Shown: positions 10,400-64,000 of the stretch, piece after piece
How positions within the stretch are numbered: the first letter of the stretch is position 1
Layout: each line of letters begins with the position of its first letter
NCBI GenBank assembly: GCA_028534125.1
Contig: CM052816.1
Location: forward strand, 82,150,001 to 82,214,000
Direction: 5' to 3'
Source of the DNA: Lama glama
Taxonomy: Eukaryota
DNA: 64,000 nt
Made by a program: the position numbers and the translations under genes
The notes under the pieces: model-generated
The model's input: the letters and a program-made list of their open reading frames with translations, nothing else
The model's database searches: none
What the model was told of the DNA's origin: nothing

Positions 10400-10985
10400 G
10401 CGACCCAGAGGTGTCCCCTGGGTAGCAGTCACAGAAATTGGTGCTCCAGATGAGGGTATGTATAAGCCCTGTCTGGAAGATAACTCCGGAGCTGCAGGGA
10501 GGCAGAGGTCAAGTGCAGATGGCGTGTACTGGCCTTCCATCCCTAAGAGCGCATCCGTTCCCTGAGAACAGGGCCCTAGGCCTCTAGTTCTGGGCCAGAG
10601 CTGAAACCTGCCCCTCAAGCCCAATCTTCAGGCCAAGCAAATGAGCCTCTTTCTCAGAAGACGGGGGTGTAGGGGGAGGTATGGGAGAGGAGGCGGTGGG
10701 GGTGGGGCAAAAGGTTGAGGGAGGGGGAGGGTTGAGGAAGGGAGAGGGGTTGGGGGAGAAAGGGGGTGGGGGCGCGCGTGTGTGCACCGTCCCACTGCGC
10801 ACTGTCCAGGCTGGGGGCCAGTAACTGTCTCCTCCCGCCGGACCCAGAACGAAGCCCCCGGCCACCAAAGCCAGGAAACCGAGGCGTGTCCCAGCCTCGA
10901 GCACTGGGGCACCAGGCGCCCGTCTAGGGTCCCCTCCCGGAGACGCGGCGCTTGGGACGCGGAGGACGGCGAGCGCCTAGATGAG

Positions 10986-11007
10986 AAGATGGCGCCCCCT
11001 GCTGGGG
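10986..11007 (-). promoter_or_regulatory. Overlapping CTCF and YY1 motifs
   Basis: Minus strand CCCCAGCAGGGGGCGCCATCTT contains a near-consensus CTCF core (CCAGCAGGGGGCGC) overlapping the YY1 core (CGCCATCTT). Confidence 0.7.
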
Positions 11008-11555
11008 CGCGGCAGAGAGAGCTCGGAGGTGTGCCCGGAGGCTTCCTCTGGGGAAGCGCCCCGACAGCCCCACGTGTGAGCCAGTCGGCCGCCGGCGCCT
11101 CAGGCCCAAGCCAAGCTGCGAGAAGACGCGCGTCTCCCGCCCGAGGCCCGCGCCTCGCGTCGGCCCGCGCTGCGCCTGCGGCAGGTGAGTCCGCGCGCGC
11201 GCCGCCAGCCCTGTGGGAGCGCTTCCTCGCCTAGCTCCGCGCTGTGGGTCTGCCGCACTGGAGCCCGGGGGTTTCCAAAGGTGTTGTGGGGGCTCCCCTC
11301 AGGCGCAGGTGCGAGGTGGGGCTCACACCCTTCCCTCCTCAGGGAGAGGCTCGGGTTGCGCGCTCCCGCCCCGCTGCGGCGCGGGGGGCTGGCGTTCCTG
11401 GCGGGATGGGTCCCCGCCTCTCCTACCTGCCTCCGGGTGGGCCTTCTCCGCCAGGAGCTGCTCAGCCAGCTTTGAGGTTTTCTTCCGAGGAATCCCTCCA
11501 CACGTAGGTGGATTCACTGCGTCCGTGGGCGGAGGTGAGGTCGGGGCCCTCAGAC

Positions 11556-11567
11556 GCCGCCATCTTG
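11556..11567 (-). promoter_or_regulatory. YY1 consensus site
   Basis: GCCGCCATCTTG is the reverse complement of the full consensus CAAGATGGCGGC. Confidence 0.65.
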
Positions 11568-12159
11568 GCGCAGAACCTCAGGCCCCCCGTTGTGTTGGAG
11601 GTGTTTCGGTGGCGGAGCTGGCGTGCGTGCGTGCGTGCGTGTGTGTTCTCACACCAGTGCCGCGTGTTTCCGATGCCACAGTTGTGACCTCTTGCCTTTT
11701 TCCTGCGCGCACTACCACATGCACAGGGCAGGCTGGCCGTCAGGTTAGAATGAGATCCACAAGCCAGGACAACGCCGTGCTGAACAGAACTCGCATCTAC
11801 CATTTTTAGTTCATTTTGGCTGCAGTTCACACCTTTGCAAGCCCCCCCCCACCCCCATCTCCGGTTGCAGATTTTCTGGGGAACTGTGTTGAATTTAAGC
11901 CACATTTGGCACATGCACTGTGTCAGCCCAAACACGTTTCCGTGAGTAGAATTATGGGCATGCTGCCCCCAGTGACACATTATATTGGTGACATAAAAAA
12001 TGTGGTGCTTCGTCCCAATTAGTGAAATAAAAAAAAAAAAGTAAACTAGCAGCAGGTTAAAAATACCCAAGACCCTCAAGTTGATGGAAAATTTGGAAGA
12101 AATCATGATAACAACAGCAGCAGCAGGAAAAAAAAAACACCTAACAGTTTTGAGGTGCA

Positions 12160-27000: not shown

Positions 27001-28086
27001 TGGATTTTATTGCAGCAGCGACAACACTTCTCAGCACCACGCTGACCTCTCCAGCATCTCCCATCTCGATATCTCCGATAACTCTTGGCTGAAGAATAAC
27101 TACGGAAGAAGTAATCCCAGCCCTGCAACTGCTGCCCTACACAACATATCAACGTTCCCTCTTATTAAATTACGGGATTAAAGCATTGGAGGCTCCACTT
27201 TTCCTGCATCGGACACCTAAAACCAGACGCACTTGGTTTGCTCTCTAACCAGTCCTGGGGAGGCGTTATCTCCCGGATTTCTGCCTGACCAGACGTGAAA
27301 GAGCACGAGCGAGCTGCGTCTTCCACATGACTTTTCCCTGGACAGTGTGCTCCATTTTCGAAGTCCAATGTTGGACTTTCCTTGCAACCTAAGCATTTCT
27401 GTCCTATGTCAGCCGGCAGGCGTTGCCCCCAACGTGCAAGCTAACAGTTTTCTTTAGCTTCTTCTCTGAGCCAAATCATCTCTTCAGCCTAAGTTTTCCT
27501 TATTGGGAGCATTCGGGAGTTTTCAAGCTACCTGATTTTCTGCTTTACCCGCAAAGCCAAGAAATGTAACTCAAGCAAAGCAGTCCCCGCGCAGACCCTT
27601 GTGATGTGGGCAGGTGGAAATAAATCAAGCCCCAAACGGCTCCACGGGTCCTGCACGCACCAGCGCCCTTGGTAATTGACCAGCCAACTTTGCAAATGCC
27701 GGAGCTCCCTTGGCAGCCTCTGCCGGTGGAGAGAAAGGCAGCGGGTTCATCCCCGCGGCCCCGTCACATATGCCCCCACCAAGCCCCACCGCGGATGGGT
27801 CTTACCAGAAGGCGGAGGAGCGGGGCCCAGGCTTCCCGGGAACCGGCGCCGGTTCTAGGCAGCGGCAGCGGCAGCGGCAGCAGCAGCGCCGCCCGCGCAG
27901 CCGGACCCGCGCGCCCGCTCCGACCCGGGCTCGCAGGCTGAGCATCCCTCCCAACTCCGGCGTGCGGCACCCACCGGGAGGAGAGGGCTCTCTCTCTGAT
28001 TGGCTTCCATCAACGCTACAGAATTAAAAAAGAGAGAGAGAGAAAAAAAAAAGGCATGCACCACCGCTAACTGAGACCGAACCCAC

Positions 28087-28217
28087 CTCTGTTCGCCTTC
28101 CTGCGCCCGGGGAGACCCTGCGACCCGCCCAGGCTGCTCCTGCCTCCGCTGCCGCTGAGGTCTCCGGCTCTGCCGTTCTTGCTGCCGCGGCTGAAACTGC
28201 AGCTCTTGGGATGGGAA
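28087..28217 (-). other. CDH6: Non-coding first exon (3' part; 5' part/TSS falls in N-gap 28218-28405) of cadherin-6
   Basis: Minus strand reads ATCCCAAGAGCTGCAGTTTCAGCCGCGGCAGCAAGAACGGCAGAGCCGG...GGAGGCAGGAGCAGCCTGGGCGGGTCGCAGGGTCTCCCCGGGCGCAGGAAGGCGAACAGAG|GTGGGT. This closely matches my recollection of the human CDH6 mRNA 5'UTR, and the similarity ends at a GT donor (28086-28085). Identified from memory, not by search; no coding exon is present in the window to confirm it. Confidence 0.7.
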
Positions 28218-28405
28218 NNNNNNNNNNNNNNNNNNNNNNNNNNNNNNNNNNNNNNNNNNNNNNNNNNNNNNNNNNNNNNNNNNNNNNNNNNNNNNNNNNN
28301 NNNNNNNNNNNNNNNNNNNNNNNNNNNNNNNNNNNNNNNNNNNNNNNNNNNNNNNNNNNNNNNNNNNNNNNNNNNNNNNNNNNNNNNNNNNNNNNNNNNN
28401 NNNNN
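28218..28405. other. Assembly gap over the putative CDH6 TSS (other gaps: 13549-13695, 16177-16337, 17308-17447, 38056-38203, 48766-49406, 49480-49664, 51448-51594)
   Basis: N runs in the sequence. Confidence 1.
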
Positions 28406-45174: not shown

Positions 45175-45455
45175 GTCTGTATGGATGACCAGTTGGCATG
45201 GCAGTGACAGATGGCCTCACACAACTGGGTCCGGTGGTTCAAATGTAGTTCACTTTGGCAGTGACTGAAAGTCTTTATGATCCAGTGATTGTTCAGCGAC
45301 CTGGATGAAATGAATTGGTTCTTTCCTGGTGAATAGCTGTCCATGTCACAAGACTAGAATGTAACCGGTACTAATTGTCTCCCTGGTTGATGGTTTCAGA
45401 ACAGGGTTAAAGAGGTCATAAGGAAGGGTGACAAAATGCTCTGTCTTTTCACACC
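45175..45455 (+). mobile_element. LF-SINE (LFSINE_Vert) ancient tRNA-derived SINE copy
   Basis: Collinear blocks matching the recalled LF-SINE consensus: B-box-like GGTTCAAAT (45236), GGCAGTGACTGAAAGTC, TGTTCAGCGACCT..TGAAATGAATTGG (45306-45318), TTCCTGGTGAATAGCTGTCCATGTCACAA, GGTACTAATTG (45367-45377), CCCTGGTTGATGGTTTCAG. Confidence 0.8.
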
Positions 45456-48680: not shown

Positions 48681-49998
48681 AGAATGGCCATCATTCAAAA
48701 GTCCACAAATGATAAATGCTGAAGAGCACTGGAGAAAAGGGAACCCTCCTACACTGTTGGTGGGANNNNNNNNNNNNNNNNNNNNNNNNNNNNNNNNNNN
48801 NNNNNNNNNNNNNNNNNNNNNNNNNNNNNNNNNNNNNNNNNNNNNNNNNNNNNNNNNNNNNNNNNNNNNNNNNNNNNNNNNNNNNNNNNNNNNNNNNNNN
48901 NNNNNNNNNNNNNNNNNNNNNNNNNNNNNNNNNNNNNNNNNNNNNNNNNNNNNNNNNNNNNNNNNNNNNNNNNNNNNNNNNNNNNNNNNNNNNNNNNNNN
49001 NNNNNNNNNNNNNNNNNNNNNNNNNNNNNNNNNNNNNNNNNNNNNNNNNNNNNNNNNNNNNNNNNNNNNNNNNNNNNNNNNNNNNNNNNNNNNNNNNNNN
49101 NNNNNNNNNNNNNNNNNNNNNNNNNNNNNNNNNNNNNNNNNNNNNNNNNNNNNNNNNNNNNNNNNNNNNNNNNNNNNNNNNNNNNNNNNNNNNNNNNNNN
49201 NNNNNNNNNNNNNNNNNNNNNNNNNNNNNNNNNNNNNNNNNNNNNNNNNNNNNNNNNNNNNNNNNNNNNNNNNNNNNNNNNNNNNNNNNNNNNNNNNNNN
49301 NNNNNNNNNNNNNNNNNNNNNNNNNNNNNNNNNNNNNNNNNNNNNNNNNNNNNNNNNNNNNNNNNNNNNNNNNNNNNNNNNNNNNNNNNNNNNNNNNNNN
49401 NNNNNNAACCCTAATTCAAAAAGATACCTGCACCCCAGTGTTCATAGCAGCGCTATTTACAACAGCCAAGACATAGGAANNNNNNNNNNNNNNNNNNNNN
49501 NNNNNNNNNNNNNNNNNNNNNNNNNNNNNNNNNNNNNNNNNNNNNNNNNNNNNNNNNNNNNNNNNNNNNNNNNNNNNNNNNNNNNNNNNNNNNNNNNNNN
49601 NNNNNNNNNNNNNNNNNNNNNNNNNNNNNNNNNNNNNNNNNNNNNNNNNNNNNNNNNNNNNNNNAAAAAAAAAAGACAAACTTATTTATAAAACAGAAAC
49701 AGACTCACAGGCATAGAAAACAAACTTATGGTTACCAGGGGTGAAAGGGGATGGGAAGGGATAAATTGGGAGTTTGAGATTTGCAGATAGCAACTAATAT
49801 ATATAAAACAGGTAAACAATAAGTCTGTACTGTATAGCACAGGGAACTATATTTAATATCTTATAGTAACTTATGATGAAAAAGAATATGAAAACAAATA
49901 TGTGTATGTTCATATATGACTGAAGCATTATGCTGAACACCAGAAATTGATACAACATTGTAAACTGACTCTACTTCAATAAAAAAATATATATACAA
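48681..49998 (+). mobile_element. Young 5'-truncated L1 (camelid-type 3' UTR), mostly in N-gaps
   Basis: ORF2 C-terminal pieces (KGTLLHCWW; IQKDTCTPVFIAALFTTAKT), L1 3' UTR with AATAAA and an A-rich tail; candidate TSD AAAAGTGA at 48673-48680 and 49999-50006. Confidence 0.9.
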
Positions 49999-61049: not shown

Positions 61050-62600
61050 GGATTTTTTTTTGAAAGTGCAAATGATTCTAAAGTTAACTTGGATAAAGAA
61101 ATGTATGAAAAAAACATCAAAAAAGAAAGAGAAAAGGAATAGTAAGAGGAGATACGCTTTCTGAGTATTAAAATATAATAGATTCTGTAGTAATTGAAAC
61201 AGCATTGTATAGGTATAGGGATATACGGATAACACAATAGAAGTTCTAGAAATAAAACCAAACAAGCATAATACTTATTTGTGATAAAAATGGAATTTTA
61301 ATGCAGTTGAAGAAAAAGATAAATTTGTTGGGAAAACCTGCTGACCCTTTGATTTAAAAAGTTACACCTTACACTAACTGAATTCCAAAGGCATTAAGTG
61401 TTCTGGTTGGGTTCAAAACTGGATTAATTTTTCTGGAGAGTTATTTGGCATTATACACCAAAATTCTTTAAAATACCCTTTAATCAAAAAATTCCACTTC
61501 TAGCAATTTTTTTATCATGAAATAGTTCAGTAAACACATAAATCACACAGGGATGAGCATTACAGTGTTAATTTTAATAGAAAAAAATTAGGAAAATAAC
61601 TACTAAATATTCATGAAGTGGAGATGCTAAATAATTCATGTACATTTATAAAATGGAATACTGTTTAGCCATGAGAAGGCAGATATCTATCTGTTGATAT
61701 CAGAAGAGGTCCATGATATATTTTTAGTTCAAAAAATTAGGGTATAAAATACTATGAACAACATATTTAATATTTGTAAGAAAAAATTGTATTTAGAAAA
61801 AACTAGGAAAATTATGCTCTTAAGTGTAAACAGTGATTTTATCTGACTTGTAGCATCTTGAATGACTTTTATTTTTCCATTATCTATTTCTACATTTTTT
61901 TTCAAAGCATCCAAAATCTTTTTAATAAGGCAGGATCTGGGGTTAATTTTTGTAGCCATGGCTGGCACGTCGCCCTCTGGCACCCCAGAATTTCCAGCCC
62001 TTGGAGCGTACATAGGGTTTGGTATGGCTGTGCGGGGTTCCTGGGACCTTTACGAAATGCCTGCACAGCTCTCGGACCAGAGAGCGGGACAGTGTTGTAG
62101 TCCTCGGACGAGTCCAGGGCCAGCTGGTTGAAGGTGAGGCTCTTGCCCCCGGCCTTGAGGATGCAGCTCTGGGCACGGCTGCTCACTCGCAGGGCACACA
62201 CCTTCAGCTTGGGCACCTCCTGGACACACACATCATCGGTTATGGTCCCTACAACCACAGCGGTTTTGCCTTCCTGACCAGGAAGCTTCATCTTCTGGAT
62301 CATCCCAGAAAGGGACAGAGGTGGCCGGTTGGTGCGACTCATGTACAGCCTCTTCAGCACAACTTGATTGAAGGTGGAGTTGGTTCGTCTGGCCAGAAAC
62401 CTGTACAGCTTGACCAACAGCCTTAGGTAGATGTCCTGGCTCTTGGGCTCCTTGCTCTGAACCTTTCGGTCCTTGTGGCGGATGTCAGCTCTCATGATGG
62501 TGCCTCCTCCTTAGCCAGGTCCGGAAAGAAAGAGCCATTTCTACATTTTATAATTATCTTATGATAAACACTGATAAGCATAATAAAAAAATTCAAAAAT
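61050..62600 (+). mobile_element. Old L1 (L1ME-like) 3' region, interrupted by the RPL18 retrocopy
   Basis: aattccacttctag, aatggaatactgtttagcc and ccatgatata motifs; the 3' tail resumes after the right TSD at 62550. Confidence 0.65.
61899..62536 (-). pseudogene. RPL18: RPL18 processed pseudogene (full-length retrocopy)
   Basis: Intronless. ORF 62495->61902 translates to ...[36 protein letters not shown]..., and the C-terminus [16 protein letters not shown]...GYKN* is in another frame (frameshift at 62073/62074). Also present: 5' pyrimidine-tract UTR, ATTAAA signal, short poly(A), and a 13-bp TSD ATTTCTACATTTT at 61886-61898 and 62537-62549. Confidence 0.97.
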
Positions 62601-63060: not shown

Positions 63061-63124
63061 TTTTATTTAATTGACTTATAGTCGATTTACAATGGATCAA
63101 TCTCTGGTGTACAGCATACTGATT

Positions 63125-63169
<45 letters not shown>

Positions 63170-64000
63170 TTTCATATTCTTTTTCATATATATTCCTTTT
63201 CATATTCTTTCCCGTTATTGGCCATTACAAGGTATTGAAAACAGTACCCTGTGCTAGGACCTTGTTGTTTATCTATTTTATATATAGTAGTTATTATCTG
63301 CCAGTCCCAAACTCCCAATTTACCCCTCCCTACTCTCTTTCTCCACTAGTAATCATAATTTTGTTTTCTATGTCTGTGAGTCTGACTCTATTTTGTAAGT
63401 AAGTTTATTTATGTCTCTTTTTTTAAGATTTCATGTAAGTGATATCATGTGGTATTTTTCTTTCTCTTTCTGGCTTACTTCACTTAGAATGATGATCTCC
63501 AGGTCCATCCATGTTGCTGCAAATGGCATTATTTTATTCTTTTTTTATGGTTAAGTAGCATTCCCTTGTATATACCACCCCTTTTTTTATCCAATCATCT
63601 GTTGATGGACATTTAGGTTGCTTCCATGTGTTGGCTATTGTATATAGTGCTGCTATGAACATTGAGGTGCATATATCTTTTCAAATTAGAGTGTTTCTCG
63701 ATGTATGCTCAGGAGTGGGATTGCTGGATCATAGGGTTAAATCTGTTGTCAGTTTTTTATGGAATCTCCATACTGTTTTCTGTAATGGCTGCACCAAACT
63801 ACAGTCCCACCAATGATGTAGGAAAGTTTCCTTTTCTTCACACCCTCTCCAGCATTTATTGTTTGTGGACATTTTAATGATAGCCATTCAAACCTCACTG
63901 TAGTTTTGATTTGTATCTCTCTGATAATTAGTGATATTGAGCATGTTTTCACATGCCTATTGGCCATTTGTATGTCTTCATAGGAGAAATGTTTTGTTTT
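63061..64000 (-). mobile_element. L1 3' end (cetartiodactyl-type), runs off the window
   Basis: Reverse-complement L1 3' UTR and ORF2 end ([28 protein letters not shown]...), with an internal (AT)n. Confidence 0.92.
63128..63165. repeat. (AT)19 microsatellite inside the L1 3' UTR
   Basis: Read directly from the sequence. Confidence 0.95.

What the first reader, a model, noticed from the sequence alone, without database searches (positions are those of the whole stretch)
45175..45455. LF-SINE copy ~17 kb upstream of the putative CDH6 promoter: candidate exapted enhancer
Seen: ~280 bp collinear with the LF-SINE consensus as I recall it, keeping the core TGAAATGA(A)TTGG and (G)TACTAATTG homeodomain-type blocks. 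Established: LF-SINEs were active in early lobe-finned fish/tetrapod ancestors, survive in mammals only as a small set of constrained copies enriched near neurodevelopmental genes, and include a demonstrated ISL1 enhancer and a PCBP2 exon. Inference: still being recognisable implies purifying selection, and CDH6 (patterned expression in brain and kidney) is a plausible target.
Basis: partly seen in the sequence, partly recalled or inferred. Interest (0 to 1): 0.7.

Follow-up and report, generated by a model that had tools for sequence, protein, structure and literature searches.

The report
Worn LF-SINE relic upstream of CDH6
This is the worn front half of a known, very old jumping element lying about 17,000 bases before the likely start of the cadherin-6 gene; it has probably been slowed a little by selection and may be one of that gene's many switches, but neither its conservation nor any switch activity was shown.

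Summary
Observation confirmed. Window 45230-45455 (+) scores 48 bits (E 1e-14) against a profile of 43 other LF-SINE copies from this genome, anchored on Rfam uc_338, with this copy held out. It still hits in 20 of 20 trials with the seed motif randomised. It is a 5'-to-middle fragment lacking the part used for the known exons. The gene on the minus strand is CDH6; the CpG island 17 kb away is its inferred promoter. The enhancer reading is unproven. The copy is 61-64% identical to its consensus, at or below the median of the other copies and like 60 local MIR-type repeats (64%). That suggests slowed change only if the insertion is much older than MIR. About half of well-detected human LF-SINEs lie in conserved regions; 50 Sox2 events fall on 2,367 copies in neural progenitors, none near CDH6. 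No cross-species alignment was obtained. The scan found similar LF-SINE relics on other DNA before. New member of a known kind; low interest.

The parts
45230..45455 (+). LF-SINE fragment, from the end of the tRNA-related head to the middle of the element (profile columns 130-364 of 561)
   Evidence: held-out nhmmer hit, 48.1 bits, 223 aligned columns, 61% identity, 3 gap events
45175..45229 (+). probable decayed 5' head of the same copy
   Evidence: loosely collinear in a multiple alignment of heads; no hit with a head-only profile
45236..45244 (+). B-box-like block of the tRNA-related head (label recalled)
   Evidence: aligned to the matching block of other copies
45306..45318 (+). family core block TGAAATGAATTGG
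   Evidence: lies in a 21/30 identity segment
45372..45377 (+). TAATTG homeodomain-type site inherited from the family
   Evidence: matches the profile consensus; TAATT[G/A] kept in 5 of 24 copies not found through this motif; lies in the best-matching segment, 22/30; chance P 0.13
27500..28405 (-). CpG island with a putative non-coding first exon and splice donor near 28087: inferred CDH6 promoter
   Evidence: CpG o/e 0.79-0.90; minus-strand donor; CDH6 coding exons begin 47.7 kb beyond the window start on the same strand; 5'UTR likeness recalled; ATG exon not found

Best explanation
The stretch is a dead, 3'-truncated LF-SINE copy that has likely been modestly slowed by purifying selection, most likely as one of several weak, tissue-restricted distal control elements of CDH6, where homeodomain or Sox factors would bind its retained TAATTG block. 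Shown: family identity (about 0.97), truncation, and position 17 kb upstream of the CDH6-side CpG island. Inferred: constraint (about 0.55-0.6), factor binding, and CDH6 as the target. The confidence given is for the whole chain.
For: Family. Age versus divergence: the copy is about as far from its consensus (61-64% identity, K2P 53-58%) as 60 local MIR-type repeats are from theirs (median 64%, K2P 51%), with fewer gaps (1.2-1.35 vs 2.3 per 100 columns), although LF-SINE traces to the sarcopterygian ancestor (PMC13063735 passage) and MIR is younger (recalled). In a neutral simulation 48 bits corresponds to K of about 0.4-0.5; it was reached by 0-4 of 200 runs at K 0.75 and 0 of 200 at K 0.9 or more. 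Base rate: 49-56% of well-detected human copies lie in conserved regions against 4.8% expected (PMC3500645 supplement). At family level LFSINE_Vert is enriched for Sox2 binding in neural progenitors (4.6-fold), Lhx2 binding (PMC10257727) and DNase peaks (PMC6904449). CDH6 is the nearest gene. No CpG island was seen in 200 kb upstream, no strict CTCF-type site lies between element and promoter, and mouse Cdh6 has 5' BAC-defined enhancers for forebrain and Schwann cells.
Against: No orthologue was aligned, so constraint is indirect. The copy is at or below the median of its family (24 of 33 better over columns 130-364; 14 of 28 over 130-310), far from the 78-83% of the best-kept copies. The gap deficit is 3 events against about 5 expected, not significant. 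If the insertion is only as old as early mammals (K 0.5-0.6), 5-56 of 200 neutral runs reach the score; 39 of 53 factor-bound human rows trace only to Mammalia or younger. A copy picked for being recognisable from a large pool of relics is the lucky tail. Motifs are at chance level. None of the 53 Sox2/Brn2-bound human LFSINE rows lies near CDH6 (human position recalled), and only about 2% of copies are Sox2-bound.
Confidence: 0.42

Rival explanations
1. A functionless LF-SINE fossil: it drifts neutrally (or lost its constraint long ago) and is visible only because it is in the low-divergence tail of many relics; nearness to CDH6 is chance in a gene-poor region.
For: Divergence equals that of local MIR-type repeats; rank at or below the family median; matches are spread evenly, 14-22 per 30 columns, without a sharp core; about half of well-detected copies are outside conserved regions; many faint relics exist; motifs at chance level.
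Against: If the insertion predates amniotes, neutral decay should have erased it (0-4 of 200 runs at K 0.75); an ungapped run of about 88 columns; matched columns are slightly the family's better-kept columns (0.651 vs 0.605, P 0.02; this can also come from consensus quality).
Confidence: 0.38
2. Constrained, but not as a CDH6 control element: for example part of an unannotated non-coding RNA, or an element acting on another gene of the region.
For: Sequence constraint does not name a target.
Against: No other promoter-like CpG island was seen in 200 kb upstream; no Rfam family matches the stretch at gathering score.
Confidence: 0.15
3. An exonised copy like those in PCBP2 and SMARCA4.
For: LF-SINE supplied 19 coding exons in tetrapods (PMC9148063 passage).
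Against: The copy ends at column 364, just at the donor-equivalent position; the exon body and acceptor of L002/L003 are absent and no 3' half follows within 3.2 kb. It lies upstream of the inferred start of CDH6, and no strong splice sites were found.
Confidence: 0.03
4. Not an LF-SINE: a chance match or another tRNA-derived SINE.
For: The uc_338-only profile is weak (E 0.022); no Dfam model was run.
Against: 48 bits over 223 columns with the copy held out; survives motif masking; 7 of 10 pattern-found loci themselves hit the uc_338-only profile.
Confidence: 0.02

Closest known systems
LF-SINE / LFSINE_Vert (tRNA-derived SINE; Bejerano et al. 2006, not read, seen through passages of PMC3649676, PMC9148063, PMC5753468, PMC4233971)
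   Same: Collinear with other copies of the family over 223 columns; keeps the family's core blocks; non-coding, near a neuro-developmental gene.
   Different: 5'-to-middle fragment only; more worn than most copies retrieved here; orthologues not examined.
ISL1 LF-SINE enhancer (passages of PMC3649676 and PMC9148063)
   Same: Same family; non-exonic copy near a patterned developmental gene.
   Different: That copy is conserved in mammals, chicken and frog and was tested in transgenic mice; nothing comparable is shown here.
uc.338 / PCBP2 exon and the SMARCA4 copy (L002, L003; gene names recalled from translations)
   Same: Same family; they anchor the profile (177 bits to Rfam RF02271).
   Different: They use the antisense 3' half as an exon and are 78-81% identical to the consensus; this copy lacks that half and is 61% identical.
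Mouse Cdh6 5' enhancers mapped with BAC RP24-88H4 (PMC3139094 section 11 and passages; PMC7567090 passages)
   Same: Distal elements 5' of the Cdh6 start drive forebrain and Schwann-cell expression.
   Different: The text seen gives no position or sequence for the 400-bp Schwann module and no link to a SINE; overlap could not be tested.

Membership tests
LF-SINE (LFSINE_Vert) | Collinear similarity to the family beyond chance | tested here: met
   48.1 bits, E 1e-14 against a held-out 43-copy profile; masked-motif control 20 of 20
LF-SINE (LFSINE_Vert) | Profile is truly LF-SINE (anchored on uc_338) | tested here: met
   25 uc_338 matches, 2 over the cut-off; uc_338 overlaps the LFSINE 3' end; copies spanning both halves link them
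LF-SINE (LFSINE_Vert) | Hit to the Dfam/Repbase consensus | not testable with these tools
   no Dfam library on hand
LF-SINE (LFSINE_Vert) | tRNA-related head with A and B boxes | tested here: inconclusive
   B-box-like block aligned; head-only profile no hit
LF-SINE (LFSINE_Vert) | 3' half of the element (full-length copy) | tested here: not met
   ends at column 364 of 561; nothing in the next 3.2 kb: a fragment
Exapted SINE enhancer (ISL1 type) | Purifying selection across species | tested here: inconclusive
   indirect only: divergence like local MIR-type repeats, simulation depends on age; no orthologue aligned
Exapted SINE enhancer (ISL1 type) | Factor binding or active chromatin | tested here: inconclusive
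   no row near CDH6 among 53 Sox2/Brn2-bound human LFSINE rows; other factors and tissues not covered
Exapted SINE enhancer (ISL1 type) | Reporter activity matching the neighbouring gene | not testable with these tools
   needs an experiment
LF-SINE-derived exon (PCBP2 type) | Antisense 3' half with acceptor and donor inside a transcript | tested here: not met
   exon body and acceptor absent; upstream of the inferred CDH6 start

The most novel reading that the evidence does not exclude
This LF-SINE copy is a so far undescribed, transposon-derived enhancer that supplies one of CDH6's patterned domains (forebrain compartment, cortical area border, Schwann cells or nephron), perhaps one of the mouse BAC-defined 5' modules, so that an early-tetrapod SINE helped wire type II cadherin adhesion codes.
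Probability: 0.15. Interest if true: 0.5.

Novelty: new member of a known kind. Interest (0 to 1): 0.2.

Why it matters
If it is an enhancer, it would add a second kind of target (a cell-adhesion code gene) to the few tested LF-SINE enhancers and give a 230-base candidate inside the mouse Cdh6 5' regulatory territory. As it stands it is one of some thousands of catalogued relics, with no more evidence of function than the family base rate. No paper linking an exapted SINE to CDH6 was found: 0 papers held all of CDH6, enhancer, SINE and exapted; none of the listings concerns CDH6; 'Cdh6' is absent from the text and searched supplements of PMC13063735 and PMC10257727. Bejerano 2006 and Inoue 2008 were not read; Lowe 2007 is not held. 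Their tables may list the human or mouse orthologue.

Tried and rejected
A DNA search of the own genome with the element found only itself, as did the two-block pattern. Rfam scans of the element gave only sub-threshold chance hits; uc_338 does not hit it because it models the missing 3' half. Pairwise alignment to 24 single copies was mostly at chance. A covariance model for a genome-wide ranking could not be built, so the copies came from uc_338 plus four short patterns and are biased to well-kept ones. No cross-species or read-level alignment was obtained, so conservation against flanks and expression remain open. The look-alike search of the scan's notes returned nothing. The CDH6 ATG exon was not found in 264 kb by motif scans; it may lie in an N stretch. 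Motif enrichment (homeodomain, Sox, E-box, POU, MEIS) was at chance. The donor-column lookup failed and was redone. Rows left out before counts: L001 and L027 (the window itself), L078, L080, L081, L087 (same places as L032, L088, L028), L086 (assumed duplicate of L085, not checked), L034, L035, L037 (no hit); MIR-type set capped at the 60 best, of 72 hits in the final scan.

Full report
Question. I tested the family, the gene and the claim of constraint separately.

Family. No Dfam model is on hand, so I built one from this genome. [quoted passage not shown] The translations around L002 and L003 look like PCBP2 and SMARCA4 (names recalled). uc_338 covers only the 3' half, and single copies aligned to the window mostly at chance. 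Four short patterns added copies of the 5' half (10, 3, 6 and 7 matches; reversed-pattern controls 2, 1, 0, 0). Of 46 distinct loci given, 43 entered the final profile. With the window copy held out, it hits 45230-45455 (+) at 48.1 bits, E 1e-14, the only hit at E<1 in 464 kb. Randomising the seed motif left 20 of 20 trials significant, and 7 of 10 loci from the first pattern hit a profile made only of uc_338-found copies. Against this, that 8-copy profile alone gave the window copy just E 0.022. The name is about 97% secure.

Anatomy. The copy runs from a B-box-like block through the core block at 45306-45318 and the TAATTG site at 45372 to column 364 of 561. The head (45175-45229) is only loosely alignable. 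The copy stops at the position of the splice donor used by the exonised copies; the exon body and acceptor are missing and no 3' half follows in 3.2 kb. It has 4 CpGs and 45% GC. TAATT[G/A] is kept in 5 of 24 copies not found through that motif; its chance in a shuffled copy is 0.13, and no other motif tested stands out.

Gene. Cadherin exons lie on the minus strand from 47.7 kb beyond the window start. The first found matches solved cadherin-6 best (206 bits, against 172 for cadherin-10). The CpG island at 27.5-28.4 kb has a minus-strand donor and is the inferred promoter, 16.8-17.0 kb from the element. The ATG exon was not found, and no transcript was seen, so the promoter assignment rests on position and a recalled likeness. 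No CpG island was seen in 200 kb upstream; multi-exon genes without islands would be missed.

Constraint. No orthologue was aligned, so the evidence is indirect. Leave-one-out, the copy is 61.4% identical (K2P 57.6%) over columns 130-364, where 24 of 33 copies do better (median 64.6%), and 63.9% over columns 130-310, where 14 of 28 do better. These copies are biased to well-kept ones. Sixty MIR-type repeats (name recalled) from the same 464 kb, measured the same way, give a median of 64.3%, K2P 50.7%, and 2.3 gaps per 100 columns against 1.2-1.35 here. In neutral simulations a score of 48 bits or more was reached by 121-123 of 200 runs at K 0.4, 35-56 at 0.5, 5-21 at 0.6, 0-4 at 0.75 and 0 at 0.9 or more (indel rate and rate spread were my assumptions). 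So the copy looks slowed if it was inserted before amniotes split, and need not be if it is only as old as early mammals. Its age is unknown: 14 of 53 factor-bound human rows trace to Amniota or Tetrapoda. It was also picked for being recognisable from a pool that a preprint puts at about 100 times the known number (10.1101/2025.03.14.643233, passages).

Base rates from papers. PMC3500645 (passages and supplement rows): 200 of 360 and 281 of 576 human copies lie in conserved regions. PMC13063735 (passages; all 55 LFSINE rows and part of Table S3): 2,367 copies, mean K2P 37.8 against 35.7 for MIR, 50 Sox2 binding events in neural progenitors (4.6-fold enriched), none on chromosome 5 near CDH6, whose human position I recall. 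PMC10257727 (passages, supplement rows; one scanned file unreadable): Lhx2 enrichment resting on 3 peaks, with no Lhx2 motif detected in the consensus. PMC6904449 (one passage): enrichment in active states. PMC3139094 (passages, section 11) and PMC7567090 (passages): the mouse Cdh6 5' BAC holds forebrain and Schwann-cell enhancers, positions not given in the text seen. Also seen as passages: PMC3649676, PMC3428314, PMC5753468, PMC9148063, PMC4255032, 10.1101/2024.03.11.584453; one supplement row of PMC5065162. Bejerano 2006, Lowe 2007 and Inoue 2008 were not read.

Reading. A real, truncated LF-SINE relic. I put constraint at about 0.55-0.6, a control role on CDH6 at 0.42 and a neutral fossil at 0.38. 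The mechanism, if any, would be homeodomain or Sox factor binding at the TAATTG block and looping to the CDH6 island; every step of that is inferred. Earlier notes of this scan reached similar verdicts on other LF-SINE copies; they are not independent support.

Verdict. Observation confirmed, interpretation partly supported, new member of a known kind, interest 0.2.

Noticed in passing
window 10700-11700: A second CpG island (o/e 0.72-0.89) inside the inferred CDH6 intron 1. Its 11310-11570 part has 3 diverged look-alikes elsewhere in the genome (66-72% identity) and resembles an old LINE-1 5' end on the minus strand with a YY1-type start (recalled). It holds the window's only strict CTCF-type site (11005, minus) and a plus-strand splice donor near 11184. 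It may be a repeat-derived promoter that escaped methylation, pointing antisense to CDH6.
   Followed up: partly
window 61900-62540 (-): Processed RPL18 retrocopy (Pfam Ribosomal_L18, E 1e-60) with an altered start and a flanking direct repeat that looks like a target-site duplication. It is GC-rich but is not a promoter.
   Followed up: partly
L038-L057 (200 kb beyond the window start): The CDH6 ATG exon was not found although later exons are present; it may lie in one of the 500-N stretches.
   Followed up: partly
L032 (G000:C14:47441600-47441800): A non-exonic-looking LF-SINE middle fragment 83% identical to the family consensus, the best-kept 5'-half copy seen; a stronger exaptation candidate than the present one.
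   Followed up: no
L085 and L086 (G000:C105730:209638 and 575030): Two matches with the same 23 letters 365 kb apart in opposite orientation, perhaps an LF-SINE copy inside an inverted duplication.
   Followed up: no
window 63100-64000: Start of a LINE-1 3' end in reverse orientation with a TA microsatellite (family recalled); related pieces at 49400-49900.
   Followed up: no
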